Counted from the stretch's first letter, positions 13,583-36,028 are shown. The stretch is DNA of 47,729 nucleotides from Erythrobacteraceae bacterium (GCA_046339235.1 JBKDUW010000155.1:1-47729), one strand, 5' to 3'. Numbers and translations: made by a program. The notes: generated by a model not told the origin, from the letters alone.

Positions 13583-14263
13583 TTAGGCCCGCGCGCTCCA
13601 ACCCGTCCACAGCAGGCCCGCATAGAAGATTTCGATGTCACGAAACCCTGCCTCGGCAAGCAGTTGGGCTTCTCTCTCCCGCGATATCATCGGAACGAAT
13701 TGACGGATACCTTCGCACGCCCGCGCCACATCTTCGAGCGGTGCGCCGGAATCCAGCGCGAACCGCGCATAGCGATCCAGTTTGTGCGCGAACTGCGGAT
13801 CGGATCTGTCGAGGCAATGATCGACGACAACGAAAGGCGCTCCCGGATGCAAGCGGCTGCGGATGGCCTGCAAGGTCGCAAGCTTGGCCCCGTCGTCCGG
13901 GATCATGTGAAGCGTCAGCAAGCAGGTCGCGGCGTCAAACGGCCCCGGCGGCGCGGCGTCGATCAATCCTTCGACAAGATCGCAGCGGTCACTGAATTCA
14001 CCCAGCGTCCGGCGAGCTACTGCCAGCATTTCGGATGACGGATCGACGCCAGTGAAACGCCAACCGGGCTGCGCTTGCGCAAAGTGCCGAAGCTCGATCC
14101 CGCCGCCTGCGCCAACCACAAGGATGTTCGCCTCATCGGGTGCGCCCTCGGCGACGAGCAGCGCGCTCATGCGCAGCATATCATGGTGCCCGGGAACGAA
14201 CCGCTTGGGCCCGTCGACATAACGCGCGGCGAAATCGGGGTCGGCGAAGGGGTCTTCGGTCAC
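13583..14263 (-). CDS. Class I SAM-dependent methyltransferase (CmoA-like)
   Basis: ILVVGAGGG motif I, GVDPS, FDAATCLLTLH, L.PGAP; GTG start overlaps the upstream stop (GTGA). Confidence 0.85.
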   Translation of the reverse strand: MTEDPFADPDFAARYVDGPKRFVPGHHDMLRMSALLVAEGAPDEANILVVGAGGGIELRHFAQAQPGWRFTGVDPSSEMLAVARRTLGEFSDRCDLVEGLIDAAPPGPFDAATCLLTLHMIPDDGAKLATLQAIRSRLHPGAPFVVVDHCLDRSDPQFAHKLDRYARFALDSGAPLEDVARACEGIRQFVPMISREREAQLLAEAGFRDIEIFYAGLLWTGWSARA

Positions 14264-14829
14264 CGCAAGTCGGCTTTGGGATTGAGCGGCGTGTCGATCA
14301 CTAACACCAGCCGCTTTTCGCCCATGTCGCCGGCTGGCGGGGATCGGTGGAAGCACGGCCGGTGGTCGGCGTCGTAGGTCCGACCCTTGAACAGGCCGAC
14401 CCAACCCGTGGGAACGCGCTCGAGGCAGCAATCGCTTCGATCATTTTCATCGGCGTGCGGCGCGATGTCGGTTCCGGGACCTGCATAGGTCGTTATCAGC
14501 CGGACATCGGTGTAATCGGCGTGAACCTTGCGGCAGGCATTGCTGTCGGTGCGCTCGATCCGAACCCGCACCGCGCTGACGTTCATGATCTGTGCGAACC
14601 GGCGAGCAAGTGCTTCGACATCGACCACCAGATCACCCGGCAAATCGGCGAAGGCCTCGCGCACACCTCCGGGTTCGCCCTCGTAACGCCGCATGTGCGG
14701 TTCGAGCGCCAGCATCTCGGCAAGCGTCGCGTCCGAGAGCGGCGGATCGCGCGGTTCAAGGTGGAGCGGGCAGTCGCGGTCATGGATCTGCGCCCATTGA
14801 TCCATGAGCAGTGTTTCTGCCGCGATCAT
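14260..14829 (-). CDS. DUF1826 family protein
   Basis: CRKVHADY...[11 protein letters not shown]...LFKG...HRSP...RLVLVID; ATGA-coupled to the COG0523 gene. Confidence 0.8.
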
Positions 14830-16061
14830 TCCGCAGGCTCCAGCGCGGTTTGGGCTTCGCCCCAGGCGGGGAAGGGATCGTTCAGGCTTTCCCACTTTTC
14901 GGGGGTGAATGCGTCGGACGGCACAAGGCACGTATCGAGCGCCTTGGTTATCGCCGCCTTGTCGAGCCCGATGCCGATAAACACCAGCTCCTGCCGCCGG
15001 TCGCCCCAGACCGGGTCCCAGTGACGGATCACGAATTCCTCGAAACTGCCATCGTCCGGCCAGCGGTTTTTGGGCACGGCGGCCCACCACCGGCCCATGC
15101 GGCTGACGGTTTTCTGGTGCCCGGCAATCGCCAGCTCGCCCAGAAACTCGCTGCGGGTCGCGAGCCAGAAGTGGCCCTTGGCGCGGATCACCTTGTCGAG
15201 CGCGTCGCCGGTCAGGAAGCGGTAGAACATTGCCGGGTGGAACGGGCGGCGGGCGCGATAGACGAAGCTCTCGACCCCGTATTCCTCGCTTTCAGGGCGG
15301 TGGCTGGCGTAGTCGTAGAGTTCTTTCATCCACAGCGGGTGCTGCTCGGAGCGTTCCTCGTCATAGAGCCCGGTGCCCATGATGGTGTCGAGCGCGACCT
15401 TGCCGAAATCGGCGTCGATGATCCGCGCATCGGCGTTCAATGAGGCGACCACCTGCTTGACCGTGGCGAGCTGTTCGGCGCTGACCGCGCTCGCCTTGTT
15501 GACGATCACCACATCGGCGAATTCGATCTGTTCGACGAGCAGGCTGACAAGGCTGCGATCATCGCCTTCGCCCGCTGTCTCCCCACGCGCCGAGAGAAGA
15601 TCGGTGCTCGAATAATCGGCCAGCAGGTTGAGCGCATCGACCACGGTCACCATGGTGTCGAGCCGCGCGACATCGCCGAGGCACTCGTCTTCTTCGTCGC
15701 GGAACGAGAACGTCGCGGCGACCGGCAGGGGTTCGGAAATCCCGGTGCTTTCGATCACGAGGTAGTCGAAGCGGCCTTCTTCGGCCAGTTTGCGGACTTC
15801 CTTCAGCAGATCATCGCGCAGGGTGCAGCAGATGCAGCCATTGGTCATCTCGACCAGCGTTTCCTCCGCGCGGCTCAATGCCGCCTCTCCGCCACGCACC
15901 AGATCGGCGTCGATGTTCACCTCGGACATGTCGTTGACGATCACCGCCACCCGCTTGCCCTCTCGGTTGGCGAGGATGTGGTTGAGCAGCGTGGTCTTGC
16001 CCGCGCCGAGAAAGCCGGAAAGTACGGTTACGGGGAGACGAGGATCAGGTGTGGCATTCAT
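14826..16061 (-). CDS. zigA: COG0523 (G3E) zinc metallochaperone GTPase, ZigA/YciC type
   Basis: [30 protein letters not shown], CobW_C-like C-terminus ([11 protein letters not shown]). Confidence 0.9.
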
Positions 16062-16128: not shown

Positions 16129-16208
16129 GCAATAGGCAGGGCTGTGGTTTGAAACGGGTATGCCGTCACGCAGGGCTGAGACGCCGATGGGTGTTGCCCG
16201 GCGAGATT

Positions 16209-16232
16209 ATCTATATATGATAAAATATAGAT
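16209..16232. promoter_or_regulatory. Putative ModE-type operator
   Basis: Perfect inverted repeat ATCTATAT-N8-ATATAGAT in a GC-rich background; resembles the TATAT-N8-ATATA core of ModE sites; a ModE-type gene follows the downstream TBDR. Confidence 0.65.
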
Positions 16233-16255
16233 TCGGCGGCAGTTCGGGGGACTTC

Positions 16256-18616
16256 TTGCGCAACATTTTTCAGATTGGTCTGTCCGGCAGCGCCGCGTTT
16301 CTCCTGTCGGCACCGGCCTTGGCCGACGCGGCTTCCGCGGAGAGCGAGGCCAGCGAACCCATCATCGTCACCGCGCGGCAGCGTCCGGAAGATGCGCAGG
16401 ACGTGCCCGCTGCGCTTTCGGTGGTGGACGCGCGCTGGCTGGAGCAGTCCTACACGCTCAACACCCGTGACCTCACCGCGCTGGTGCCCGCGCTGAACTA
16501 TTCCTCGGCCAATCCGCGCAACACGGCCTTCACCATCCGCGGGCTGGGATCGAGCGTCGTCGCGGTCAGCCAGGCCAATGACGGGCTCGAGCCGGGGGTA
16601 GGCTACTATGTCGACGGGGTCTATCACGCGCGCCCCGCTACGGCCGCCTTCGACTATTCCGATATCGAGCGGATCGAGGTGCTGCGCGGACCGCAGGGCA
16701 CGCTGTTCGGCAAGAACACTACTGCGGGCGCGATCAACATCATCTCTGCCGCGCCGAGCTTCACGCGCAGCGTCAATGGCGAACTCAGCGGGGGCGAGCG
16801 CCGCTTTGCGCAAGGGCGGTTCTCCGCCACTGGTCCCTTGGCGGGAGAGACGCTCGCCTACCGCCTGTCGGGCACCTTCACCCGGCGCGACGGGGTGCTG
16901 CGCAACGTCACCAATGGCCGCGACCAGAACACGCTCGGCGCACAGGCGGTGCGCGGGCAGGTGCTATGGCAGCCTTCGTCCACCTTCCGGCTTCGGCTGA
17001 TCGCGGACTTCTCCAATTTCGACAGCGAGTGCTGCACGCAGGTCTATTTGCGCGTCGGCACCAGCCTGCGCCCGGCGGCTCGACAGTTTCCGGCGTTGGC
17101 GGCAGCGGCGGGCTATACCCCGGCGAGCACCAATCCCTATGACCGCCTGACCGACATCGATGCGCCGCTTGCCGTTGAAACCAGCGAGGGCGGCATCGCG
17201 GGAACAGCGGACTGGGACATCGGCCCGGCCACGCTGACCTCGATCACCGCATGGCGCTTCTGGAACTGGGACGCGGCGAATGACCGGGACTATACAGGTC
17301 TCCCGATCCAGCTGATCCAGCGCATCCCCTCTCGGCAGGACCAGCTCAGTCAGGAAGTGCGGATCGCGTCCGATGGCGAGGCCGATGTCAGCTATGTCGC
17401 GGGGCTCTACTTCTTCCGTCAAGTGCTCACCGGATCGCCCAATTCGGTCTTCGGGCCCTACGGCGCGCCGTGGCTGATCGGAGCGACGACTGGCGCGAGC
17501 GCCACACCGGTGCCGGCGAACCTGCTCGACGGTTACGGCCAGACCGGCGAGACGCGCTTTGCGGTCAATAGCTATGCCGCCTTTGCCGAGGCGAACTGGC
17601 GGATCGCGGCGCGCGTCAGGCTGACCGGAGGCCTGCGCTACACTTACGAGAGCAAGTTGGGCGACTACAGCACACAGGTGTCCGGCGGTCCGGCCACCAC
17701 GAGCCCTGCACTCATCAACGCGCGGCTGGGCGTGCTGCGGCCGCAGACCTATGCCGCGCGCGACCGGGAGGGCAGCCTCTCGGGCCGCGCGAATATCGCG
17801 TGGCAGCCGACCAATGCCATATTGCTCTATGCGAGCTTCGCGCGCGGGTTCAAATCGGGCGGGATCAACATGTCGGGCCTGCCCCTCGATGCGAACAACC
17901 AGCCCGCGTTGGCGACGGCGGTGGTGGAGCCGGAACGCAACACGACCTGGGAGGCGGGGGTCAAGTCGACCCTGTGGGACGATCGCCTCACGCTTAACCT
18001 CGCCGCCTATCACACCACGGTCAGCGATTTTCAGGCGACGGTGGTGGATTCGAGCCAGACCGTGGCCCTGCGCGGCTATCTTTCGAACATCCCCGAGGTG
18101 CGCGTGCAAGGCATCGAGGCCGATGCTGCGCTGCGCCTAGGGCGCCTGACGCTGATCGGCGCGCTCGCCTATGGTGATGGCACCTATACTGACTATCCGG
18201 CAGGGCCCTGTCCGCTTGAACTGCAGACTGCCGCGACAGCGGCATGCGATCTCACTGGTCAGCGATTGGCGGGCCTGCCGCGCTGGTCCGAAACGCTGAG
18301 CGCCGATTATACGCTGCCAGTGGCGGGCGGCGTGCTTTTCCTCCATGCCGAAAGCAACTGGCGCAGCGGCTATTCCGGCGATCCGAGCCTGTCGCGGTTC
18401 ACCTTTGTCGAGGGTTACAACCTCACCAATGCCAGCCTTGGCTACCGGCAGGAGAATGCCGACGGGGAAGGCTGGGAGATCGCCGTCTTCGCGCGCAATC
18501 TGCTCGATGCAGATTATATCCAGAATGTGACCATTCAGGCGGGCAATTCAGGGCTAATCCTCGGTACGCCCAGCGATCTGCGCACTGTGGGGGTGACCTT
18601 CAGACTGCGGCAGTAG
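16256..18616 (+). CDS. TonB-dependent receptor
   Basis: Signal peptide, TonB box IIVTAR, plug motifs IRGLG and IERIEVLRGPQGTLFGKN, C-terminal beta strand. TTG start inferred from the GGGGGA RBS. Confidence 0.9.
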   Translation: MRNIFQIGLSGSAAFLLSAPALADAASAESEASEPIIVTARQRPEDAQDVPAALSVVDARWLEQSYTLNTRDLTALVPALNYSSANPRNTAFTIRGLGSSVVAVSQANDGLEPGVGYYVDGVYHARPATAAFDYSDIERIEVLRGPQGTLFGKNTTAGAINIISAAPSFTRSVNGELSGGERRFAQGRFSATGPLAGETLAYRLSGTFTRRDGVLRNVTNGRDQNTLGAQAVRGQVLWQPSSTFRLRLIADFSNFDSECCTQVYLRVGTSLRPAARQFPALAAAAGYTPASTNPYDRLTDIDAPLAVETSEGGIAGTADWDIGPATLTSITAWRFWNWDAANDRDYTGLPIQLIQRIPSRQDQLSQEVRIASDGEADVSYVAGLYFFRQVLTGSPNSVFGPYGAPWLIGATTGASATPVPANLLDGYGQTGETRFAVNSYAAFAEANWRIAARVRLTGGLRYTYESKLGDYSTQVSGGPATTSPALINARLGVLRPQTYAARDREGSLSGRANIAWQPTNAILLYASFARGFKSGGINMSGLPLDANNQPALATAVVEPERNTTWEAGVKSTLWDDRLTLNLAAYHTTVSDFQATVVDSSQTVALRGYLSNIPEVRVQGIEADAALRLGRLTLIGALAYGDGTYTDYPAGPCPLELQTAATAACDLTGQRLAGLPRWSETLSADYTLPVAGGVLFLHAESNWRSGYSGDPSLSRFTFVEGYNLTNASLGYRQENADGEGWEIAVFARNLLDADYIQNVTIQAGNSGLILGTPSDLRTVGVTFRLRQ

Positions 18617-19010
18617 GATCGTCTGACGCGGGTTCCTTGCTGCGTTTTGCGGGACGCGGTGCGGCGAGCAGGTGCCCGGCGATGGCTGCGAACCCGGCGC
18701 CGCTGGCCTGTTCCGCATCGCTCTGGAGCTGGCGATACCGGCCCAGAACCTCCTCCCCCAGCGCCGTCAGGTGTGCGCCCGCCTTCTGGTTGCCCGGCGT
18801 GGTCGCGACCAGCGGCCCCTGCCAGCAGCGGTTCATGGCATCGACGAGCAGCCAGGTGCGGCGGTAGCTCATCCCCATCGCCCGACCGGCCGCCGAGATC
18901 GAGCGGTGTTCGGCGATGGCGTCGAGCAGGTCGGCCTTGCCCGGACCCATGGCGATCTCGTCGCCGCACATGATCTGGATCTTGAACTTGAGGGGTGTGG
19001 GCGGCGTCAT
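18600..19010 (-). CDS. Stand-alone ModE-type winged-helix regulator (no Mop domains)
   Basis: MGPGKADLLDAI...SISAAGRAMGMSYRRTWLLVDAMN...GAHLT; only 136 aa. Confidence 0.88.
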   Translation of the reverse strand: MTPPTPLKFKIQIMCGDEIAMGPGKADLLDAIAEHRSISAAGRAMGMSYRRTWLLVDAMNRCWQGPLVATTPGNQKAGAHLTALGEEVLGRYRQLQSDAEQASGAGFAAIAGHLLAAPRPAKRSKEPASDDPTAAV

Positions 19011-19121: not shown

Positions 19122-19535
19122 ATGACCCGCCTGCGCGCCCTGATCCGTGACCATGCCCGGCTGACGCTGGTGCTGCTGGCGCTTGCGCTGGCGGTGAAGG
19201 CTGTGGTGCCGGCGGGGTTCATGCTGTCGGCGGGCGGTGACCGGTTTCTGACGGTGACGATCTGCTCCGATGCAAGCGGAACGCCCAAGCAGATGCAGAT
19301 CGCCCTTCCGGGCAAGCAGGATGCCGGCGGCGATCATTCCGATGCGGCTGCCAAGGCGACACATTGCGCTTTCTCGGGCCTCGGCCATTCCGCGCTCGGC
19401 GGGGCCGATCCGCTGTTGCTGGCGACTGCGCTGGCCTTCATCCTGCTGATCGGGATTGCCCCGCTCCCGGCGCTGCCTCGGCGCGACCTTCCCTTCCTGC
19501 GCCCCCAATTGCGCGGGCCTCCTCTCTCCGCCTGA
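19122..19535 (+). CDS. DUF2946 family (CruR-like) leader protein ending in RGPP
   Basis: Hydrophobic N-terminus with PAGFM, ICS, HCAF, second hydrophobic segment, Pro-rich tail ending LRGPPLSA. Confidence 0.8.
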   Translation: MTRLRALIRDHARLTLVLLALALAVKAVVPAGFMLSAGGDRFLTVTICSDASGTPKQMQIALPGKQDAGGDHSDAAAKATHCAFSGLGHSALGGADPLLLATALAFILLIGIAPLPALPRRDLPFLRPQLRGPPLSA

Positions 19536-19612
19536 CACGCTGAACCCTTCGTGTCGGTAAGCCCGGCCATGCGCTCCATTGCGGGCGCGGCGGGCTGTCG
19601 GAGCTGCTTTTC

Positions 19613-20143
19613 ATGTATGCCATTCATAGCTGCCCAACTGGGCAGCCAGACGCGGGCCATCCCGCGCGGCTCGCCGAGCAAGGCGGGCTGATCCTGCAAT
19701 TGCAGGAGAACCGTTCGCACCTGTCGCAGGATGCGCGCGTTACCTTTACCGTGCTCATCGCCGTGTTCATGGCGATGGCGGTCCTGCCTGCACTCCGGGG
19801 CCAGTGGCTGGTGCCCGCCTACGCCATCGGTGCCATGGCGCTATTGGTCGGCGTGCTTGATTGGCACCGCCGCACCCGGCCTGCCGCCGAATGGCTGGCG
19901 CTCGATGACGGACGGCTGCTGTGGCGCAGCCTTGCCCACGAAACGGTCGAATGGCCGCTCGCTGCCACGCGCCTTGTCGTCGACGATGCGGTGCCCGCAC
20001 GGCTTCGACTGTTCCTCGAACACCGCGCCCGCCGCATCGAGATCGCCACCTGCCTCGGCCTCGAGGAACGCCGCGAGGTTGCCGATCTCATCACCCGCGA
20101 AATCGCCGCAGCCCGCCAGGACGGCTCGTCTTTGTCCTTATAA
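19613..20143 (+). CDS. DUF2244-like membrane protein
   Basis: L.ENRS, two TM helices, C-terminal IEIATCLGLEERREVA pattern; GGAG RBS upstream. Confidence 0.6.
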   Translation: MYAIHSCPTGQPDAGHPARLAEQGGLILQLQENRSHLSQDARVTFTVLIAVFMAMAVLPALRGQWLVPAYAIGAMALLVGVLDWHRRTRPAAEWLALDDGRLLWRSLAHETVEWPLAATRLVVDDAVPARLRLFLEHRARRIEIATCLGLEERREVADLITREIAAARQDGSSLSL

Positions 20144-20161
20144 TTTTTTGGAGACCGCACC

Positions 20162-20686
20162 ATGATCCGTAAACTCATTGCCGCCGCTGCCCTGAGCAGC
20201 ATTGTCATTCTTGCAGGCTGCCAGGCCTCGCCCGAGGCCAACGCGCCCGCCGCTGCCGAAACCGCCGCCAGCAGCATCGCTCTGACCGACCCCTGGTCGC
20301 GCGAGACCGCCGAGGGCCAGAACGCGGGCGGCGCCTTCATGACCATCGCTAACACCGGCACCGCCGCCGACCGCCTGACCGGCGGCAGCACCCCGGTGGC
20401 CGCGCGCGTCGAGATCCACACCATGACAATGGAGAACGACGTCATGCGGATGCGCCAGCTTGAGGACGGGCTGGAAATCCCGGCTGGCGGCGAGGTGACG
20501 CTCAAGCCCGGCAGCTTCCACGTGATGCTGATGGACCTCAAGCAGCCATTGAAGGCGGGCGACAAGGTGCCGCTGACGCTCACTTTCAAAGGTGCGGGCA
20601 CCGTGGAGACCGAGCTCGAAGTGCGGGCCGCGGGCACCATGGCCCCCGGCATGACGCATGGTGAGGAGGACAAGCCCCATGGCTGA
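20162..20686 (+). CDS. PCu(A)C periplasmic copper chaperone (lipoprotein)
   Basis: Lipobox LAGC; Cu ligands in EIHTM...MRM...LKPGSFHVML. Confidence 0.93.
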   Translation: MIRKLIAAAALSSIVILAGCQASPEANAPAAAETAASSIALTDPWSRETAEGQNAGGAFMTIANTGTAADRLTGGSTPVAARVEIHTMTMENDVMRMRQLEDGLEIPAGGEVTLKPGSFHVMLMDLKQPLKAGDKVPLTLTFKGAGTVETELEVRAAGTMAPGMTHGEEDKPHG

Positions 20687-21335
20687 TCCTTTCCCCGAAC
20701 TGGAGGACGAGCCCTCGCCCGAGCGCCGCGCGGAAGGGCTCAAGACCCTGCGCCTCGCCCTGTGGGGCGCGGTGGCGCTGGTGGTTGGCATCGGCCTTGT
20801 GGCCATGTTCGCCCCCGACCGCTCACCCCCCTCGGCGGGTGCCGCGGCATATTCGGACAGCATCGGCGGGCCATTCTCGCTGACCGCGCCGGACGGCTCG
20901 CGGGTGACCGATCAGACGCTGAAGGGCACACCCTTCGCGATCTTCTTCGGCTTCACCCGCTGCCCGGACGTCTGCCCGACCACGCTGTCGCGCATGGCGC
21001 AGCTGAGGAAGCAGCTTGGGCCGGACGGCGACAAGTTCCGGATCGTCTTTGTATCGGTCGATCCCGGCTACGACACTCCGCAAGACATAGGCCGCTATGT
21101 CGAACTGTTCGGCACCCCGATCCTCGGGCTGACTGGCACCGACAAAGAAGTCGATGCGGCGGTCAAGGCCTACCGCGCCTTCTATCAGAAGGTCCCGACC
21201 AAGGGCGGGGACTACACCATCGACCACACCGCCAGTGTCTACCTGATGGACGCTTCCGGCCGCCTGCAGTCGATCATCGCCTATGACGAAACCAACCCCA
21301 GTGCCCTCGCCAAGCTCAAGCGGCTGGTGGGCTAA
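20679..21335 (+). CDS. SCO1/SenC family copper chaperone
   Basis: N-terminal TM, FGFTRCPDVCP, VSVDP, YTIDH. Confidence 0.95.
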   Translation: MADPFPELEDEPSPERRAEGLKTLRLALWGAVALVVGIGLVAMFAPDRSPPSAGAAAYSDSIGGPFSLTAPDGSRVTDQTLKGTPFAIFFGFTRCPDVCPTTLSRMAQLRKQLGPDGDKFRIVFVSVDPGYDTPQDIGRYVELFGTPILGLTGTDKEVDAAVKAYRAFYQKVPTKGGDYTIDHTASVYLMDASGRLQSIIAYDETNPSALAKLKRLVG

Positions 21336-21357
21336 CCTCTTCCAACAAAAGGACAGA

Positions 21358-23469
21358 ATGACAATGAGCCGCCTTTCTATCGCCGCGCTGCTTGCGGCCA
21401 CATCTCTCACCACCCCTGCCCTCGCGCAGGAGGCAGCGCCCACAACCGGGGGCTGGACTCCGAACAATAGCACCGTCACCGGCGAGCGTGACAGCTACGC
21501 CGCCGACGAGGCCAGCGTCACCCGCACCCCCGTCCCGCTGATCGAGGTTCCGCAATCGATCCAGGTCATCACCAGCGAGCTGATCAAGGACCAGGAGCTG
21601 GTCACGCTCGACGAGGCGCTGCGTAACGTCTCGGGCGTGGTGCCCTCGCTGCCGTCCGAGATCGTGCTGGTGAACCCGATCGTGCGCGGGTTCGAGGCGG
21701 AGATTTTCACCGACGGGTTGATCGGCTACGGCGATACCGCCGTGATCGATCCGGGCAGCCTGTGGAATGTCGAGCGGATCGAAGTCGCCAAGGGGCCGAC
21801 CTCGACCCTGTTCGGCGGCGGGATCGGCTCGCCGGTGGGCGGGCTGATCAACCTCGTCTCCAAGACCGCCAACGGAAAGACCTTCCTCGATGGTCGGTTG
21901 CGCGCAGGCAGCTTCGAGACCTACTCAATCGCGGCAGACGCAGGCGCGGCAATCACCGACAGCCTCTCGGCCCGCGTGGTCGCCGAATACCAGTCGTCCG
22001 AAGACAATATCGATGTCGTGGAGATCGAGCGGCTGCTGATCGCGCCCTCGGTGCGCTTCGCCCCATCCGAGAACACCGAGATTGTCGGACGCTTCACCTA
22101 TACCCGCATCGCCCAGCTGGAATATGCGGGCCTACCGGCGATCTTCGTCGATGATCCGCGCGTCGATCCCGAGCGCTTCACCGGCGCCACCAATGCGCCG
22201 GATACCGAGGTCGAGAACCTCACCGTCCAGCTCGAATGGACCCAGCGCTTGGGCGAAGGTCTGACCTTCAACCTGCGCGGGCGTCGCTATGAGAACGACT
22301 TCAGCGAATTCGCCTCCTCGCCCTTCCTCGCCTTCTTCCCCTGCGGCGCGGCCTCGGGCCTCAACGCCACGTCCTGCCCGCAAATCCGTGCGCAACTGCC
22401 CGCCACCATCGACGAATGGACGGTCGATGGCTCGCTCACCGCCGAGTTCACGACCGGCGCCATCGAGCACGTGGTGCTCGGCGGGGTGCAGTGGGACCGG
22501 GCCGATTACGACGCGGCGATCGGCTTCGATCTCTTCAATGTCGAAGCCTTCGACTATGCCGATCCGACAGCGGATTTCGACTTCTTCCCGATCCCCGCGC
22601 TCTCTGGCTTCAACACCAACCGCTACGAGACGCTGGCGGCCTATGTGCAGGACCAGCTGACCATCGCGGACCGCCTGCACGTGCTGGCCTCGCTGCGCTA
22701 TTCGCGGCTGGGGCTGACCGAATTCGTCGGCGGCACCAATGATGAAGTCTATCACGAATGGGACCCGCGCCTCGGCGTCACCTTCGATGTGACCGATGGG
22801 GTCAGCCTGTTTGCCGGCTATGCCACCGGATCGCGCCTGTCGATCTTCTTCAATGGCACTGCCAGCCCGGTGCCCGAACGGTCGGAAAGCTGGGAAGGCG
22901 GGGTCAAGTTCGCGCTGGCGGACACCGGGCTTTCGGGCACCATCGCCGCCTTCCGGCTTGATCGGACCAATGTGCCCACGCCCGATCCGGGCACCTTCTT
23001 CACCTCGATCCAGACCGGCGCGCAGCGCAGCGAGGGGATCGAGGCGGATGTCATCTATGAACCCACGCCCGCCTTCTCCTTGCTGGCGAGCTATGGCTAC
23101 ACCGATGCGCGCGTCACAGCCGATACGGTGATCCCGGTCGACAGCCGCCTGCCGCGCGTGTCCGATCATCGCGGGCGGATCGCCGCGCGCTACCGCTTCC
23201 TTGATGGCGGCGTGAAGGGGCTGGAACTGGGCGCGGGTGTGACGGCAGCCAGCGACAGCGTGATCGCACTGCCCAATGGCGCGGAGGTCGATGGCTATAT
23301 CGTCGCCGATGCCCAGGCGAGCTACACCATCGGCGGCATCCGTGTCGGCCTCAGGGTCGATAACCTGTTCGGCGCGGATTACTTCGTGCCCTACCAGTAT
23401 TTCGCACAGGACGTGGTGCGCCCGGGCAACCCGCGCTCGGCCTTCGTCACGCTCGGCTTCGGATTTTGA
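21358..23469 (+). CDS. TonB-dependent receptor (siderophore-receptor type plug)
   Basis: Signal peptide, PLIEVPQSIQVI, VERIEVAKGP, GGLINLVSK, C-terminal GFGF. Confidence 0.92.
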   Translation: MTMSRLSIAALLAATSLTTPALAQEAAPTTGGWTPNNSTVTGERDSYAADEASVTRTPVPLIEVPQSIQVITSELIKDQELVTLDEALRNVSGVVPSLPSEIVLVNPIVRGFEAEIFTDGLIGYGDTAVIDPGSLWNVERIEVAKGPTSTLFGGGIGSPVGGLINLVSKTANGKTFLDGRLRAGSFETYSIAADAGAAITDSLSARVVAEYQSSEDNIDVVEIERLLIAPSVRFAPSENTEIVGRFTYTRIAQLEYAGLPAIFVDDPRVDPERFTGATNAPDTEVENLTVQLEWTQRLGEGLTFNLRGRRYENDFSEFASSPFLAFFPCGAASGLNATSCPQIRAQLPATIDEWTVDGSLTAEFTTGAIEHVVLGGVQWDRADYDAAIGFDLFNVEAFDYADPTADFDFFPIPALSGFNTNRYETLAAYVQDQLTIADRLHVLASLRYSRLGLTEFVGGTNDEVYHEWDPRLGVTFDVTDGVSLFAGYATGSRLSIFFNGTASPVPERSESWEGGVKFALADTGLSGTIAAFRLDRTNVPTPDPGTFFTSIQTGAQRSEGIEADVIYEPTPAFSLLASYGYTDARVTADTVIPVDSRLPRVSDHRGRIAARYRFLDGGVKGLELGAGVTAASDSVIALPNGAEVDGYIVADAQASYTIGGIRVGLRVDNLFGADYFVPYQYFAQDVVRPGNPRSAFVTLGFGF

Positions 23470-23483
23470 GAGGAGAAACGACA

Positions 23484-24365
23484 ATGACCCTTGATAGACG
23501 CGCCCTCTTGGGCGGCATGACGGGGGCGGCGCTGCTCGCCCCCTATCTCGCGCTCGGAAAAGCGATGGCGCAAACGGCGGGAGGGCACGCGAACCACACT
23601 CCCGCTGCAGGTTCGCCAAGCCTCGAAGAACAGCAGGCGATGGCCGCGCACCAGAAGTCGATGGAGGACCTGTTCGGCGAGAATCTGTTCAGGAACGAAC
23701 AGATCGCGATGCTGCTCTACCCAGGCTTCACCGCGCTTGATCTGGTCGGCCCGCATTACTTCTTCGCCTGCCTGTTCGGCGCGAAGGTGCATCTGGTGAC
23801 GACGCAGCCCGATCTGGCTCCGGTCGCTTCCGACCTCGGCCTCGCCATTTCGCCAACGGTCACGCTGGAGAACACGCCCGCCGATCTCGACGTGCTGTTC
23901 TTCCCGGGCGGCACCAACGGCACGATGGATGTGATGCGAAGCGAACGCACGATGGCCTGGGTGAGGGACCGCGCCTCGCGCGCCAAGCATATCACCAGCG
24001 TGTGCACCGGCTCGATGATCCTGGGCAAGGCAGGCCTGCTCAAGGGCAAGCGCGCAACTTCGCATTGGGCGACCTTCCCGGTGCTGGAGGATTTCGGCGC
24101 GATTCCGACCGACGAGCGGGTGGTCAAGGACGGCAACATCCTGACCGGCGCAGGCGTTTCGGCCGGGCTCGACTTCGCCATTGCCCTGACCGAGCAACTG
24201 CGCGGCCGCGAATATGCCGAGGCGCTGGTGCTACAGGCGGAATACGCGCCCGAACCGCCGATTGTGGCTGGCTCGATGGCCACCGCATCACCGCCGGTCG
24301 GAAACATGATGGGCCAAATGTTCGCGCCCGTGGCCGACCAGTTTCGGGCGCTGGCGAAGAGCTAG
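23484..24365 (+). CDS. Tat-exported DJ-1/PfpI protein, isocyanide hydratase (InhA)-like
   Basis: Tat motif DRRALL; LDLVGP (Asp), SVCTGS (Cys), ATSHW, ERVVKDGN.LTGAGVSAGLDF, EYAPEPP, which follow the isocyanide hydratase pattern. Confidence 0.85.
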   Translation: MTLDRRALLGGMTGAALLAPYLALGKAMAQTAGGHANHTPAAGSPSLEEQQAMAAHQKSMEDLFGENLFRNEQIAMLLYPGFTALDLVGPHYFFACLFGAKVHLVTTQPDLAPVASDLGLAISPTVTLENTPADLDVLFFPGGTNGTMDVMRSERTMAWVRDRASRAKHITSVCTGSMILGKAGLLKGKRATSHWATFPVLEDFGAIPTDERVVKDGNILTGAGVSAGLDFAIALTEQLRGREYAEALVLQAEYAPEPPIVAGSMATASPPVGNMMGQMFAPVADQFRALAKS

Positions 24366-25335
24366 CTATCCGCCTGATTGGGCCGGGCTGCGATCAATCC
24401 GCCCGGCCCATTCGACGAGGCGGGAAGTCGCCACTCAGGTCTCCACCAAGGTGCGGTCATAAGGGGGAGCCTGGCGCGATCCCGAAAGTGGCGGGGCGGC
24501 TGCTGGCGAAACCAGGCATTCAAGCTCGCGACCGGGAGCGACCGGGTCTGGGTCGATAGATTGCGCAGCTTAGTGACCGCAATTGGGGAAACCGAGCCGG
24601 TGCGGTGCGGAGCAGTGAATACACCGCCGGTTCGGCTTTGCCGGCTGTCTGAAACAAATACAAATCCGATGTTCAGCCGCGTTTGTGTGCAGGTTCGTGG
24701 TTCCTGAATGCGTTCCAAAAAAGCGGTTTGAATGCAGCAGAGAGCCCGTCGATGCCCACGCTTTGAGCTCGAAGATAGCAATCCCATTGCAGCGCGCCGG
24801 GATCATTTTTCAATGATGGCTATTTGGTCCCCAATCGCGAACAAAACGTATCCGCACTAACGAGAAATGTTGCCGATCTGCACGGAAAATTGGTCGCTCG
24901 AATGCCGCTCTTATGCGCGAAATCCCCCCGGATTCAAAGCCATGACAGGATAGGCGATGCGTCGTAAAAGCTGGATCGCCTGACGCAGTTTGAAACCGGC
25001 TTGACCGGCACACCGTACGCGGCAGGGCGGCACGCTACTGTAATGAAATTAAAAAAGAATACATCTGAACGTGCGTATGGCAGCTTCTCAATCAAATCCG
25101 ACTGACCAATCGGATCAGATAAACTGATCGCTATGCCGCTGAAAAAACGATACATTTTTCAGACTTCAATCATTCGAATCTGATTGGAAGGCCGCGAGTT
25201 CAAATCTGTCCCACACTGTCCCACGTTTTCCACAGGCATCCGGCTCATGCTGGGGCTCATCTGGGGGCCTCCGAAAGCCGTGGTATAAAAATTAATACTA
25301 TCTATCAGGATATTGTGTCGACGATTGGCTTCCCT

Positions 25336-29085: not shown

Positions 29086-30108
29086 TCAGAACGACCAGCC
29101 CGCGGCGAGCTTGTAGAAGTCGCCGTCGTTGCCGCTTTCGATGTCGGCGCCGGCGGTGAAGCGGGCGAAGAAGCCGTTCTTGGTGGTGAACTGCACATAG
29201 GGGCCGACCCATTGGTAGACCCGTGCGGTCGATGCGCCGGGATAGGTGGTGCGGGTGTTGCTCAGCAGTTCGTAGTGCAGACCGGCCGAGAAGTTCGACG
29301 AGAACTTGTACCCGGCATTGACCCAGGTGTGCAGGAAGTCCAGCGCCGCATCCTTGTTGCGGTTGGCGAGCGCGGCGTAATAGCCGCCGTAGAATTCGGC
29401 CTCGAAGCTCGAATCCGAATAGTTGATGGTCAGGCTCGGCACGATGCCGTCGGCGAAGTTGGAGCCGGTGCCGGTCGGCACCTCATTGGCATCGAGCACC
29501 CCGCCCGAGAGCAGCGCGCCGTTGGTCAGGCCGATCTGCGGCTTCACCATCAGCTTGCCGTCGGCGAGGATGAAGTTTGCGCCGATGCCGAACTCGGTCC
29601 ACAGGTCGCTGCCCGAGGGAGCGTTGCCCGCAAGCGCGGTCGAGGCGAAGCTCGGGGTGGTCCAGAGGATCCCGTAGAAGCTCAGGTCGACATTGTCGCT
29701 GACGGGGATCAGGCCGGTGAAGGTCGGGTAGAAGCCGAAGAAGGCATCCTGGTTGAGGACGACGGTGAAGCGCTCCTGGCGCTCGGTCGGGGCATCGCCC
29801 TGCACGGCTGCGGCAGCAGCGGCGATCGCCGCGCTGCTCACGGCGACATCGCCATTGCCCTCGGCAAGGCCCGGGGCCGTGCCGGTGGCGGTGAGAATCA
29901 CGGGGGCGGATTCACCCTTGGCGGCGGCAATGGTCACGCCCGACAGGGTCTCGGCCGAAGCGGCATCGAGCTTGGCGGCGGCCTTTTCAGTCAGCACCAC
30001 CGGAGCGGCGGTTTCGATCGCGGTTGCCGGGCCGTGCGCCAGCGCGGGGGCGGAGAAGGCGGCAACAACGGCAAGCGCCGAGGCGGTGGAAGCAAAACGG
30101 ATGATCAT
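29086..30108 (-). CDS. Outer-membrane beta-barrel protein (DUF6733-like)
   Basis: Signal peptide, Ala-rich linker, LNQDAFFGFYP...SFYGILW...WTEFG, amphipathic strands, terminal WSF. Confidence 0.7.
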   Translation of the reverse strand: MIIRFASTASALAVVAAFSAPALAHGPATAIETAAPVVLTEKAAAKLDAASAETLSGVTIAAAKGESAPVILTATGTAPGLAEGNGDVAVSSAAIAAAAAAVQGDAPTERQERFTVVLNQDAFFGFYPTFTGLIPVSDNVDLSFYGILWTTPSFASTALAGNAPSGSDLWTEFGIGANFILADGKLMVKPQIGLTNGALLSGGVLDANEVPTGTGSNFADGIVPSLTINYSDSSFEAEFYGGYYAALANRNKDAALDFLHTWVNAGYKFSSNFSAGLHYELLSNTRTTYPGASTARVYQWVGPYVQFTTKNGFFARFTAGADIESGNDGDFYKLAAGWSF

Positions 30109-32547: not shown

Positions 32548-34947
32548 ATGATCCGCACCCATCTTCTGCTTGGCAGCGCCGCTGTGGCACTGACCTCGAT
32601 CATCGCCGCGCCCGCTTTCGCAGCCGACGCCGCCGACCCGCAGGCGCTTGCCGCCAGCGTCCAGTCGGGCGGCGCCATCGCCGAAACCGAGGAGAGCGAG
32701 GACGACAGGGTCCAGACCGCTAAGGAAATCGTGGTCTAGGGCAATATCGGCTTCCGCAACCGTAGCGATGCGGCCGAACCGATCCTTGTCTATGACGAAG
32801 AATATTTCCAGCGCTTCGAACCGCTGACAGCGGGCGACGCGCTCAAGCGCGTGCCGGGCGTCACCTTCCTGTCGGACGTGATCGAAAGCGACGGCGCCCG
32901 TCTGCGCGGCCTTGACCCGGGTTACACCCAGATCCTGATCAACGGCGAGCGCGTCCCCGGCGGCCAGGCCGACCGTTCGTTCTTCCTCGACCGTATCCCG
33001 GCCGAACTGATCGAGCAGGTCGAAATCGTGCGCTCCTCCTCGGCGCGTCGCACCGGCGATGCGGTCGCAGGCTCGCTCAACATCAAGCTGCGCGATGGCT
33101 TCGCGCTTGACGGCGGCTATGTCCGCGCCAGCGGGCTGTTTTTCGATGATGGCGAAGTGAAGCCCTCGGGCGGCTTCTACTACGGCGGCGAACTCGCCGG
33201 CGGGCGCATGCTGATCGGCGCCAACGTCCAGGGCCGTTACAACCCCAAGGAAAAGTCCAGCCTGCGCTACGGCGACAGCCCGGAAAACAACCCCGACTTC
33301 GCCACCGATGATTTCGACAACCGCGAAGACCAGTCGGACATCCGCGACGGCACCGATTATGCCTTTAACGCGAGCTGGGGGATCGAGACCGAGGAAACCG
33401 AATTCGAAATCCTCGCCAACTTCGTGCGCACCGAGCGCACCGAGGAAGAGCGTTCGTTCGAGTATAATGATCCGACCGCGATCAACGGCCCGGTGCGCGC
33501 CATTCCGGCGGGTAACCTGCTGACCTACAACGCCAACCTCAATGATATCACCACCGAAAGCTGGTCCGTCATCGCCAAGCTCGATCAGGAGTGGAGCCTC
33601 GGTGAAACCCAGCTGCGCGTCGGCTTTGCCAAGTTCGACGATCTGAAGGACGAGTTCGAATATGAAATCGACTTCGATCGCAGCACGCCGCGCTTCACCG
33701 GCGATCTGACGGTGCAGGACACCAATGACCAGGAGTTCTTCGTCAATCTCGAACAGGAAATCGAGCTCAACGACAATATCGAGTTCGCGGTCGGCGGGTT
33801 CGCGCAGAACAAGAAGCGCGTGTTCCGCCTGCAGGAAGTGCGCAGCCGCTTCAACCTCACCGCGGCCAACCGCCAGGGTTACGACCAGTTCGAACGCACC
33901 CCGGGTGAATTCGCGCCGAACCCCTTCCCGCCGCTGGGCGAGACCGCGTTCAACCGCGTCAAGGAAGACCGCCGCGATCTCTATGCGCTGGTCGAAGGCG
34001 AGTTTGACAGCCTGACCTTCGAAGCCGGGATCCGCTGGGAAAACACCGATGTCGAAATCACCGACTTCCAGGTTGGCGGCGCCGGCACGATCGAGAACAG
34101 CTACGACGAATTCCTGCCGTCGGCCTCGCTCAAGTTCGAGCTGGGCGATGGTCGCATCACCCTGTCGGGTGCCCGCACGATGCGTCGTCCGAACTTCAAC
34201 TTCATCACGCCCGGCCTGCTCGAGGCCGAGTTTGGCGACAACGACTTCCTCGGCAACCCCTTCCTGCTTCCCGAAGCCGCATGGGGCGGCGATCTGGGCT
34301 ACGAGCACAAGATCGGCAATACCGGGGTAATCGGCATCAACGTGTTCTACCGCGACATCAGCAACCTCATCGAACTGTCGACCCTGCTTGATGCCAACGG
34401 CGTGCCGGTCGAAGGTTCGGAAGGCGATGGCACCTTCATCTACACCCCGCGCAACACCGGCAATGGCGAGGTTTACGGGGTCGAATTCGACGCCTCGTTC
34501 AGCCTTGCTTTCATCGGCCTGCCGGACACCGGCTTGTTCGGGAACTTCGCGCTGCTCGACAGCAACATCACCGACGAATTCGGCGAGCGCCGCTTCAACG
34601 ACCAGTCGGAATATGTCTACAACTTCGGCGCGATCCAGAACATTCCCAGCTTTGGCGCGGCCTTCGGGGCGACCTACCGCAAGCAGGGCGAGGCCTTCGG
34701 CCGCGTGGTGGGTGAGGAAATCACCACCCGCTATGGCGCCGATCTTGAAGTCTTCATCGAAAAGCGCTTTGGCGACAGCTTCACCATCCGTGCAGTGGGC
34801 TCCAACCTGCTTGACAGCACCAAGGACGAAAACTTCAACAAGTTCGCGACCACGGGCGATCAGTTCGCCCGTGATTTCGACGAATACGAACTCGAAAGCG
34901 AGCGCGCCGGCCCGGTGTTCCAGGTCGTTGCCCGCTACGCTTTCTAG
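32548..34947 (+). pseudogene. TonB-dependent receptor with in-frame TAG at 32737-32739
   Basis: Signal peptide, then EIVV-TAG-GNIGFRNR continuing in frame into plug (LRGL.PGYTQILING, IEQVEIVR) and barrel ending YAF. The two ORF-track pieces are in the same frame. Confidence 0.85.
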
Positions 34948-34971
34948 GCTGACCAAAAGGGCCGTGATCTG

Positions 34972-36018
34972 ATGCTTCGACCTTTCCACGGCTTTGCGCT
35001 GATGACGCTGGGGATCGCCGCTGCCTGTGCAACGGTGCCCCCGGCGATCATGGGCGACCCCGCCGTCACCGTCACAGCCAAGGCGGAGACGGTGCCGGTC
35101 GGCACCAGCAACGGGGATGCGGCCGACGATCCGGCGATCTGGCGCAATCCGACCAATCCGGCTGCCAGCCTCGTCGTCGGCACGGACAAGAAGGGCGGAC
35201 TTTACGTTTATGACCTCAAGGGTGCCCAGAAGAGCTTCCTGGTTGCGCCCGGTATGAACAATGTCGATCTGGTCGAGATCGAGCACGGCCGTGTTCTGGT
35301 GATCGCCAGCGACCGCGCCGATCTGGTCACCGCGCATCTGTTCCTCGCACTGCTCGACCCTGCCACCGGCACGCTCTCGCCAACGGGCCGCATCGTGGTC
35401 GGGCCGGGCGAGGGCTACGGTATCTGCATCGCCAAGCCGGCCGGCAAGGATGAGATAGTCGTGTTCAGCGCCCCCAAGAACGGGATCATCTACCGCACCA
35501 CGCTGACCGGCACCGCCAAGGGCCGGGACTTCGCAGCCACCACTACCACACTTGCGACCGTCGCCACCCAGCCCGAAGGCTGCATTGCCGACCCGCGCAC
35601 CGCAACGCTCTATATCGGCGAGGAAGACGCCGGGATCTGGGCGATCGACATAAACACCGGCGCCAAGCGTCTGGTCGCCCCAATCGACAACAAGATGCTG
35701 GTCGCCGACGTCGAAGGCCTTGCGATTTCGCCCGAGGGCAGCGATGGCGGCTATCTCGTCGCCTCCTCGCAGGGCGACAATGCCTACGCCGTGTTCCGTC
35801 TGCCCGGCGTGACCCCGGTCGGCCGCTTCCGCATCGCCGCAGGCCAGTTTGGCTCGGTCGAGGAAACCGACGGGATCGAACTCGACAACCGCGATTTCGG
35901 GCCGGATTTCCCCAAGGGTATCTTCATGGCGCAGGACGGGGTCAACGCGCCCGCCGCGCAGAACTTCAAGTTTGCGCTCTGGGACGAAATTCTTGCCGCG
36001 CTGGAGGCGGGTCAGTAA
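34972..36018 (+). CDS. Beta-propeller phytase (probable lipoprotein)
   Basis: DAADDPAIW, GTDKKGGL, NNVD, YGIC, EGC, DVEG, SSQGDN, ETDG, QDG, QNFK. Confidence 0.92.
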   Translation: MLRPFHGFALMTLGIAAACATVPPAIMGDPAVTVTAKAETVPVGTSNGDAADDPAIWRNPTNPAASLVVGTDKKGGLYVYDLKGAQKSFLVAPGMNNVDLVEIEHGRVLVIASDRADLVTAHLFLALLDPATGTLSPTGRIVVGPGEGYGICIAKPAGKDEIVVFSAPKNGIIYRTTLTGTAKGRDFAATTTTLATVATQPEGCIADPRTATLYIGEEDAGIWAIDINTGAKRLVAPIDNKMLVADVEGLAISPEGSDGGYLVASSQGDNAYAVFRLPGVTPVGRFRIAAGQFGSVEETDGIELDNRDFGPDFPKGIFMAQDGVNAPAAQNFKFALWDEILAALEAGQ

Positions 36019-36028
36019 GCCTGTCGGC

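What the first reader, a model, noticed from the sequence alone, without database searches (positions are those of the whole stretch)
19122..24365. Candidate copper-isonitrile (chalkophore) uptake-and-release operon: RGPP leader > DUF2244 > PCuAC > SCO > TBDR > periplasmic isocyanide hydratase-like enzyme
Seen: six co-directional genes with short gaps or overlaps. The last has a Tat signal and the Asp (LDLVGP), Cys (SVCTGS) and EYAP.PP features of isocyanide hydratases. Known: PCuAC and SCO load Cu into heme-copper oxidases; DUF2946 leaders precede Cu-import TBDR operons (Bordetella cruR-bfrG); isonitrile natural products bind Cu; the characterised Pseudomonas isocyanide hydratase has no such export extension. 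Inference: the TBDR imports Cu-isonitrile complexes, the exported hydratase destroys the ligand in the periplasm, and Cu passes to PCuAC/SCO. No chelator biosynthesis genes are in the window, so this would be scavenging. I do not know of a description of this combination.
Basis: partly seen in the sequence, partly recalled or inferred. Interest (0 to 1): 0.85.

Follow-up and report, generated by a model that had tools for sequence, protein, structure and literature searches.

The report
Copper-isonitrile importer with periplasmic release enzyme
A copper-linked operon places an outer-membrane metallophore-type receptor next to an isocyanide-hydratase-like enzyme with an export signal, a pairing kept across several bacterial families, which likely imports copper bound to other microbes' isonitrile chelators and would free it by destroying the chelator in the periplasm.

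Summary
All six genes are real and tightly packed. The receptor forms its own clade. In 26 of 29 evaluable clusters at 36% identity or more it has a DJ-1 gene within 2 kb, against 1 of 19 for distant siderophore-type receptors, and 6 of 6 in a later search. PCuAC or SCO occur in only 12 of 42 clade loci. The enzyme keeps the catalytic Asp/Cys and the hydratase fold and adds a His/Met-rich arm. The receptor resembles FhuA, not OprC. Hydratase-driven metal release is proposed in print for actinobacterial producers (SfaF, Rv0052); my searches found no Gram-negative uptake version. Against: no substrate evidence; the leader has CXXS, not CXXC; three loci carry an alpha/beta hydrolase instead; and the apparent Caulobacter counterpart was not repressed, but slightly induced, by a 10-minute copper shock. 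Best reading: scavenging of Cu-isonitrile complexes with periplasmic ligand destruction (0.45). It is directly testable in Caulobacter and Erythrobacter isolates.

The parts
19122..19535 (+). DUF2946 (CruR/CutF-family) leader, 137 aa: N-terminal hydrophobic stretch, C48 (TIC), C82-A-F-S, 45 residues, then R-G-P-P three residues before the end
   Evidence: Pfam PF11162 31.7 bits, cut-off 23.7. C48, C82 and PP invariant in 20 aligned leaders; second Cys of CXXC mostly absent. The 45-residue spacing equals CruR's (PMC9426467).
19482..19541 (+). Most C>G-rich 60-nt window of the operon, a possible Rho-loading stretch as in cruR
   Evidence: C minus G = +18 against mean 1.9, SD 6.1. Confounded by the proline codons, so weak.
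19613..20143 (+). DUF2244 membrane protein, accessory
   Evidence: PF10003 E 4e-19; the only copy found in the genome; in 11 of 42 clade loci and 0 of 20 outgroup loci; absent from the E. oryzae locus L047.
20162..20686 (+). PCuAC copper chaperone with lipobox and H-x10-M..H-x-M motif, accessory
   Evidence: PF04314 E 3e-44; 11 of 42 clade loci.
20679..21335 (+). SCO1/SenC with CPDVC and His, accessory
   Evidence: PF02630 E 3e-48; 7 of 42 clade loci.
21358..23469 (+). TonB-dependent receptor of a distinct clade, FhuA/FoxA-like, core gene
   Evidence: TIGR01783 269 bits, cut-off 223.5. Best structures FhuA, FoxA, enantiopyochelin receptor; OprC ranks 47 and 50. 43-row clade with support 100.
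23484..24365 (+). Isocyanide-hydratase-like DJ-1 enzyme with Tat signal, core gene (D86, C174, T175, D230, Y254)
   Evidence: 3EWN E 4e-70, ICH 3NON E 4e-53; model rmsd 1.4-1.5 A to ICH; residues invariant or nearly so in 21 partners, T175 is Ser in 4.
23484..23570 (+). Predicted twin-arginine signal peptide (residues 1-29)
   Evidence: RR invariant in 21 partners; tatC present in the genome. Export not shown.
23571..23699 (+). His/Met-containing arm before the catalytic domain (helix 47-64 in the model), candidate Cu(I) acceptor
   Evidence: His+Met 116 of 738 linker residues in partners against 4.4% genome-wide; model. Metal binding untested.
24380..24409 (+). 9-bp inverted repeat after the last gene, likely the operon end; no T run
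   Evidence: Read from the sequence.

Best explanation
The operon encodes a metallophore-type TonB receptor and a hydratase-like enzyme with a Tat signal that sit together in many bacteria; the receptor likely imports a copper-isonitrile complex made by other microbes, and the enzyme is predicted to hydrate the isonitrile to a formamide in the periplasm, which would free copper for periplasmic chaperones. Shown here: gene content, conserved pairing, catalytic residues, fold, copper-gene context, no detected isonitrile synthase. Inferred: co-transcription, Tat export, the ligand, copper capture by the His/Met arm (which would strip the metal so that the freed isonitrile can be hydrated and cannot rebind), transfer to PCuAC/SCO and on to the two heme-copper oxidases of this genome, and metal-dependent control by the leader, whose direction is open.
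For: Pairing: 26 of 29 evaluable receptor clusters at >=36% identity have a DJ-1 gene within 2 kb (23 hydratase-type), 4 of 6 at 31-36%, 1 of 19 below 31%; 6 of 6 loci in a later search of another family. Receptor clade of 43 rows: 30 hydratase-type, 5 other DJ-1, 3 alpha/beta hydrolase, 1 none, 4 not evaluable. Exported hydratase-like proteins form one 39-row clade (support 98), 32 of them receptor partners. Copper context: leader upstream in 30 of 41 clade loci against 1 of 17 outgroup loci; CopC/D, MbnP/MbnH-like, CusF-SCO and PepSY neighbours. Receptor is metallophore-like, with no conserved Cys and only one partly kept Met column. Hydratase residues and fold. Precedent: Rv0052 converts diisonitriles to formamides and is proposed to release metal (PMC8872721); formamides neither bind copper nor rescue growth (PMC13674278). 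PF05141 found in 0 of 17 carrier genomes, with one ring among 9 other genomes. Two COX1 genes in the genome. The apparent Caulobacter cluster behaves as one block, is higher in minimal than in rich medium and is not named in the iron/Fur microarray paper's main text or tables.
Against: No substrate, uptake or activity data; the nearest solved relative (3EWN) is titled only a ThiJ/PfpI protein. The leader has CXXS, and CXXC is needed for copper control in CruR; CutF, the other prototype, is copper-induced. In C. crescentus a 10-min copper shock did not repress the apparent counterpart: in stalked cells in M2G log2 change was +2.2 for gntR (FDR 1e-6), +1.9 for the SOD gene (FDR 0.018), +1.3 receptor and +1.1 hydratase (not significant), and +0.0 to +0.6 in swarmer cells. 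The same cluster fell to 0.23-0.50 in a zur mutant with zinc, so zinc may matter. Eight of 47 evaluable loci lack the DJ-1 gene: 3 have an alpha/beta hydrolase and 5 have no enzyme gene detected downstream. The hydratase also occurs with unrelated receptors (L183, L186) or with none nearby (3 of the top 10 family hits; 7 of 39 clade rows). His/Met arms also occur in non-partner exported homologues (16 of 140 residues). In Aspergillus, deleting the cluster hydratase xanA changed nothing measurable.
Confidence: 0.45

Rival explanations
1. Periplasmic isocyanide defence: the hydratase destroys isocyanides that would poison or strip periplasmic copper proteins, and the receptor imports copper in some other form; the genes share only a copper-status regulon.
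For: ICH is described as a defence against isocyanide natural products (PMC10792529); fungal isocyanides inhibit bacteria in a copper-dependent way. The hydratase joins DUF2946/PCuAC operons with unrelated receptors (L183, L186). Exported Fe/Mn-SOD in 4 of 42 loci and cytochrome bd genes behind one locus (L086, after a terminator-like hairpin) look like a copper-independent backup. Mild induction by copper shock in Caulobacter.
Against: Does not explain why one receptor clade keeps the enzyme directly beside it across 28-80% pairwise identity, nor why a hydrolase takes that same slot when the hydratase is missing.
Confidence: 0.2
2. Same import-and-destroy logic with another ligand: the receptor takes up a non-isonitrile chelator and the DJ-1 Asp/Cys site cleaves an ester, amide or thio bond.
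For: One receptor subclade (L068, L158, L159; support 100) has an esterase-like alpha/beta hydrolase in place of the DJ-1 gene. Partners also include more distant DJ-1 types: DJ-1+YHS and a 418-aa fusion. The C-terminal helix differs from cytosolic ICH (Met-rich rather than Arg-rich), so the pocket may differ.
Against: The ICH-specific set (D17, C101, T102, D157/Y181 equivalents, EYxPxPP) is kept, and ICH is the closest characterised fold. Diisonitrile chalkophores also contain ester or amide bonds, so the swap fits an isonitrile ligand too.
Confidence: 0.2
3. The DJ-1 protein is a periplasmic copper chaperone or thiol redox protein that receives metal from the receptor, with no catalysis on the ligand.
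For: His/Met arm and Met276/Met279 conservation. Human DJ-1 binds Cu(I) through cysteines (recalled, not from a call).
Against: The full hydratase catalytic set is retained; dedicated chaperones (PCuAC, SCO, CopC) already occur in these operons.
Confidence: 0.08
4. An iron- or zinc-metallophore system annotated near copper genes by chance.
For: Receptor scores as a siderophore receptor. ZigA lies 3 kb upstream here and nearby in L048, L097 and L200. Isonitrile kupyaphores were reported as zinc carriers. Zur-mutant effect.
Against: Leader and copper chaperones are absent from outgroup siderophore-type receptors. No Zur-type box near the leader. The Caulobacter cluster is not named in the iron/Fur paper. 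A short diisonitrile bound Cu but not Zn (PMC13674278 abstract).
Confidence: 0.07

Closest known systems
Streptomyces thioluteus SF2768/SfaF and M. tuberculosis kupyaphore/Rv0052 (PMC8872721, PMC13674278; SfaF seen only as cited there)
   Same: An isonitrile hydratase with the D17 equivalent is proposed to release metal from a diisonitrile by converting it to formamides; copper goes to a heme-copper oxidase.
   Different: Those are producers with release placed inside the cell. Here no synthase was detected, the enzyme has a Tat signal and a His/Met arm, and it is paired with an outer-membrane receptor. PMC13674278 calls the import and release machinery largely unknown.
Bordetella cruR-bfrG-bp2921 and the DUF2946 operon survey (PMC9426467)
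   Same: DUF2946 leader heading an operon with a TonB receptor; PcuAC, ScoC, CopC, MbnPH-like and PepSY neighbours are already listed; 45-residue spacing.
   Different: CXXS instead of CXXC, 77-bp instead of 162-bp spacer; no DJ-1/PfpI gene in the passages, section 10 or the 3 held supplements (Fig. 7 itself not seen). BfrG was not compared by sequence.
Rhodobacter cutFOG (PMC9973294; bioRxiv 2025.02.05.636593)
   Same: DUF2946-family leader with signal sequence, Cys motif and C-terminal prolines.
   Different: CutF turns a detoxifying oxidase on in copper; no strong RBS-hiding hairpin here (z -1.8).
Pseudomonas isocyanide hydratase InhA/ICH (PDB 3NON) and P. syringae ThiJ/PfpI protein (PDB 3EWN)
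   Same: Fold and catalytic residues; 44-45% and 52% identity. L083 and L086 show 3EWN-like proteins directly behind a clade receptor.
   Different: ICH lacks the 70-residue N-terminal extension; position 150 is Ala here, Gly in ICH; 3EWN carries no functional name.
Siderophore receptor plus ligand-destroying esterase (FepA/Fes; PfeA/PfeE recalled)
   Same: Import followed by enzymatic destruction of the chelator to free the metal.
   Different: Copper context and a DJ-1 hydratase rather than an esterase.
OprC/NosA copper receptor (TIGR01778)
   Same: TonB receptor in a DUF2946 copper operon.
   Different: Not among the 25 NCBIfam hits shown (of 26); low structural rank; no conserved Cys or Met track.

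Membership tests
Isocyanide hydratase (ICH/InhA) | Catalytic Asp17 and Cys101 (PMC10462001) | tested here: met
   D86 and C174 align to them; invariant in 21 partners.
Isocyanide hydratase (ICH/InhA) | Thr102 and the Asp-Tyr interface pair (RsICH D180/Y204, PMC10792529; mapping is my alignment) | tested here: met
   T175 (Ser in 4 of 21), D230 and Y254 invariant.
Isocyanide hydratase (ICH/InhA) | ICH fold with C-terminal extension | tested here: met
   TM-score by target 0.91-0.92, rmsd 1.4-1.5 A to ICH; DJ-1 proper ranks lower.
Isocyanide hydratase (ICH/InhA) | Hydrates isocyanides to N-formamides | not testable with these tools
   No assay.
CruR (DUF2946 copper-repressed leader) | DUF2946 domain, first in operon, C-terminal RAPP-like motif at 45-residue spacing | tested here: met
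   (RGPP).
CruR (DUF2946 copper-repressed leader) | CXXC copper-sensing motif | tested here: not met
   C82-A-F-S; second Cys kept in few of 20 leaders, while C48 and C82 are invariant.
CruR (DUF2946 copper-repressed leader) | Downstream genes repressed by copper | tested here: inconclusive
   No data for this genome; the apparent Caulobacter counterpart was not repressed after 10 min of copper; no copper-chelation data seen.
TonB-dependent siderophore/metallophore receptor (TIGR01783) | Score over cut-off; plug plus 22-strand barrel | tested here: met
   269.3 against 223.5 bits; model and fold search.
OprC-type copper receptor (TIGR01778) | Family match and conserved Cys/Met copper site | tested here: not met
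Isonitrile producer cluster (isn/pvc or sfa/kupya type) | Isonitrile synthase PF05141 in the genome | tested here: not met
   0 of 17 carrier genomes; 1 ring among 9 others. G000 is 90% complete; three other carriers are 67-87% complete.
Isonitrile producer cluster (isn/pvc or sfa/kupya type) | FcoT thioesterase PF10862 | tested here: inconclusive
   0 of 17, but nothing rang in the controls either.
Tat substrate | Twin-arginine signal and Tat translocase | tested here: met
   Motif and conservation; tatC in genome. Export itself untested.

The most novel reading that the evidence does not exclude
This receptor clade is the first Gram-negative outer-membrane importer for copper-isonitrile complexes, and its partner is a two-in-one periplasmic enzyme that catches the copper on a His/Met arm while hydrating the ligand: chalkophore piracy that turns fungal and actinobacterial isocyanide weapons into a copper source, spread across sphingomonads, caulobacters, methanotrophs, pseudomonads and acidobacteria.
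Probability: 0.33. Interest if true: 0.9.

Novelty: new variant of a known kind. Interest (0 to 1): 0.74.

Why it matters
How bacteria import isonitrile-bound copper and release it is described as largely unknown (PMC13674278, 2026). This pair offers a named receptor clade and enzyme clade, a solved but unnamed structure (3EWN), cultured carriers (Erythrobacter oryzae COR-2, Erythrobacter sp. WG) and an apparent copy in the model organism C. crescentus. If right, it would extend siderophore-style piracy to copper and recast isocyanide hydratases from detoxifiers to nutrient-release enzymes. If the defence or other-ligand rival is right, it still assigns a copper-linked role to an unannotated receptor-enzyme pair.

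Tried and rejected
RNA runs for the locus: none was listed, so no reads were laid. Earlier scan findings: four look-ups returned nothing. Sigma-70 promoter scan found none. Folding of the leader-DUF2244 spacer was not significant (z -1.8). Zur-box search gave one chance-level hit away from the leader. GC profile shows no island edge. My recollection that Caulobacter 'TbcT' is a copper importer in this cluster was wrong: in the paper read it labels the iron receptor CciT. The 2010 ICH paper (PMC2937996) is not held. Supplement searches for PfpI/DUF2244 in the CruR and CutF papers were blank, but the CutF context table (File S1) was not among the 3 small files held and figures are not held. The iron paper's held supplement lacked even the positive control gene, so it is uninformative. 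FcoT search had no positive control. The divergent ModE-like gene and upstream receptor (16160-19010) are not conserved beside the operon in close relatives and were left out. No complex prediction was run, since I do not claim binding between these proteins. The careful tree search for the enzyme did not finish; the quick tree is reported.
Full report
Observation. The six co-directional ORFs exist at the stated place with gaps of 77, 18, -8, 22 and 14 bp, and each scores over its Pfam cut-off. The window is contig C155 of a 90%-complete, 2.8-Mb genome; the closest named relatives of the last gene are Erythrobacter records at 84-94%. The genome holds one DJ-1 gene over cut-off, one DUF2946, one DUF2244, two COX1 genes and tatC.

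The enzyme. The best PDB matches are 3EWN (E 4e-70) and isocyanide hydratase (E about 1e-53); human DJ-1 is far behind. D86, C174, T175, D230 and Y254 match ICH D17, C101, T102 and the interface Asp/Tyr pair (the last mapping is my alignment); Asp17 and Cys101 are the catalytic residues in PMC10462001 (passages). The model (pLDDT 86) fits ICH at 1.4-1.5 A. All 21 aligned partners carry RR. In a quick tree of 77 homologues, 39 rows with RR signals form one branch (support 98): 32 receptor partners and 7 others; cytosolic homologues lie outside. Between signal and core, His+Met make up 116 of 738 residues (28 of 32 rows measured; the motif rule missed 4) against 4.4% genome-wide; the C-terminal helix averages 2.06 Met against 0.63 in 38 other rows. 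Six exported non-partners also show 16 of 140, so the arm marks the exported clade rather than the pairing. Kin are not independent, so these are descriptions, not tests.

The receptor. It passes TIGR01783 and matches FhuA, FoxA and the enantiopyochelin receptor best, with OprC at ranks 47 and 50. No Cys column is conserved and one Met column reaches 58% in 26 members. This fits an organic metal complex rather than bare copper.

Linkage. I gathered 99 receptor-anchored loci and merged them into 62 clusters at 80% identity. A DJ-1 gene lay within 2 kb on the same strand in 26 of 29 evaluable clusters at >=36% identity (4 more end too soon; 23 hydratase-type), 4 of 6 at 31-36% (1 not evaluable) and 1 of 19 below 31% (3 not evaluable). 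The bins were set after seeing the data, and a cluster counted as positive if any member did. Per locus the figure is 39 of 47 evaluable out of 62. A FastTree tree of 65 rows that I chose (58 of the 99 loci, the window and 6 more) gives a 43-row clade with support 100: 30 hydratase-type, 5 other DJ-1, 3 alpha/beta hydrolase, 1 none, 4 not evaluable; the other 22 rows are 20 without DJ-1 and L183 and L186, added because they have one. A later search of 151 genomes in another family gave 6 hits, all 6 with the enzyme downstream; one is nearly identical to L097 and one is broken in both genes. Pairwise identities of 26 receptor-enzyme pairs correlate at rho 0.43 (0 of 2000 shuffles), with matching nearest neighbours in 16 of 26: co-inheritance with some reshuffling, not proof of co-evolution. 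The receptor is patchy: 11 of 400 family genomes, 0 of 6 same-genus genomes, 4 of 400 class genomes (two candidates scored per genome).

Context. Among 42 clade loci a leader lies upstream in 30 of 41 with enough flank (profile built partly from these loci; Pfam confirms many independently), DUF2244 in 11, PCuAC or SCO in 12, Fe/Mn-SOD in 4; among 20 outgroup loci, 1 leader and none of the rest. CopC/D, MbnP/MbnH-like, CusF-SCO and PepSY genes recur. The exact six-gene order recurs in L036 at 41% receptor identity. Methylosinus and Methylocystis plasmids carry receptor plus enzyme beside a two-component system instead of a leader. So the core is leader, receptor, enzyme; the chaperones are optional.

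Results against. Three loci of one subclade have an esterase-like hydrolase in the enzyme's slot; five loci, four of them near-identical, show no enzyme gene. The enzyme also sits with unrelated receptors or with none. The leader lacks the second Cys that CruR needs (PMC9426467, passages and section 10), and the family's other prototype is copper-induced (PMC9973294 and bioRxiv 2025.02.05.636593, passages).

A model-organism counterpart. PMC4176598 (passages) lists C. crescentus CC1775 DUF2946, CC1776 GntR, CC1777 sodA, CC1778 receptor and CC1780 ThiJ/PfpI as one cluster, down to 0.23-0.50 in a zur mutant with zinc. Coordinates for CCNA_01853-01859 (PMC8224329 supplement rows) match locus L102 in gene sizes and gaps: GntR 666 bp, leader gap 145, post-receptor gap 27, a 1257-bp gene, a 43-bp overlap. 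Homology is inferred from this, not sequence-tested. The block is higher in minimal than rich medium (swarmer cells log2 +2.1 to +4.3 for CCNA_01854-01860; leader +1.5), but 10 min of copper did not repress it and raised gntR (+2.2) and the SOD gene (+1.9) in stalked cells. That argues against quick CruR-type shut-off; no copper-chelation data were seen. The cluster is not named in the main text or tables of the iron/Fur study PMC3751524, while control genes are.

Mechanism. I commit to import of a foreign Cu-isonitrile complex followed by periplasmic hydration (0.45). [quoted passage not shown] PF05141 was not found in 17 carrier genomes, which fits scavenging. A chemical caveat from general knowledge: a copper-bound isocyanide carbon is occupied and Cu(I) can poison a catalytic thiol, so the enzyme probably needs the metal handed off first; the His/Met arm is my candidate for that step. 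Rivals are periplasmic isocyanide defence (0.2), another ligand (0.2), a chaperone role (0.08) and an iron or zinc system (0.07).

Novelty. DUF2946 operons with receptors, PCuAC and SCO are published, and hydratase-driven release is proposed for actinobacteria. I found no description of a Gram-negative receptor-hydratase pair in ten full-text searches of the open library, though the Caulobacter genes appear together in a table without comment on this link. Subscription journals, figures, bioRxiv supplements and the CutF context file were not seen. Other papers seen as passages only: PMC8006170, PMC10792529, bioRxiv 2020.07.23.217810 (45), bioRxiv 072470 (46), PMC6110883, bioRxiv 2024.11.25.625226 (102, 113). 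Verdict: new variant of a known kind, interest 0.74.

Noticed in passing
L037:5424-6512, L067:1746-2462, L077:11613-12314, L104:6542-7279, L109:115-726: Fe/Mn superoxide dismutases recur in these copper operons; those in L067, L077 and L104 show export-signal-like N-termini. Possibly a periplasmic stand-in for Cu/Zn-SOD when copper is short.
   Followed up: partly
L086:11199-17416: cydD/C-like ABC genes and cytochrome bd genes follow the receptor-enzyme pair after a terminator-like hairpin; a copper-free oxidase beside a candidate copper-scavenging unit.
   Followed up: partly
L078:10110-11441, L098, L099, L102:8391-9647, L201:5694-6965: A second, 418-550 aa DJ-1 protein with an N-terminal region that had no Pfam match in the one tested and DGDADGDG repeats, often in tandem with the Tat hydratase-like gene.
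   Followed up: no
L105, L107, L109, L113, L115: A Tat-signal DJ-1 fused to a YHS domain partners the same receptor clade; leaders there end in KRGPP.
   Followed up: partly
window 19122-19535 and alignment A3: Alphaproteobacterial DUF2946 leaders keep two distant cysteines (TIC and CxF) rather than CXXC, a possible different metal site; regulation direction unknown.
   Followed up: partly
first gene after the leader in 21 loci: Start codons are often preceded by a pyrimidine-rich TTTC/TTCCC-ATG without a clear Shine-Dalgarno sequence.
   Followed up: no
window 21466-21483: The TonB-box region reads NNSTVTG where relatives have NIIVTG; may weaken TonB coupling in this strain.
   Followed up: no
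window 13583-16061 (-): Methyltransferase, DUF1826 and ZigA-like COG0523 GTPase (587 bits, cut-off 600): a zinc-starvation-type cluster 3 kb upstream; ZigA-like genes are also near L048, L097 and L200.
   Followed up: partly
window 16160-19010: A second TonB receptor converging on a lone ModE-type HTH gene; not conserved beside the operon in close relatives.
   Followed up: partly
window 29086-30108 (+): 340-aa protein with signal peptide and no Pfam match, beside a Gcw_chp outer-membrane protein gene; looks like an outer-membrane barrel.
   Followed up: no
window 32851-37393 (+): TonB receptor, phytase and PhoX phosphatase in a row: a phosphate-scavenging unit of ordinary kind.
   Followed up: no
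L066:5455-6537: 361-aa exported-looking protein with a His-rich N-terminus, between leader and receptor; no Pfam or NCBIfam match.
   Followed up: partly
L031, L052, L075, L082, L204: The receptor gene is frameshifted, truncated or interrupted in several loci (transposase-like ORFs beside some), suggesting frequent decay or assembly error.
   Followed up: no
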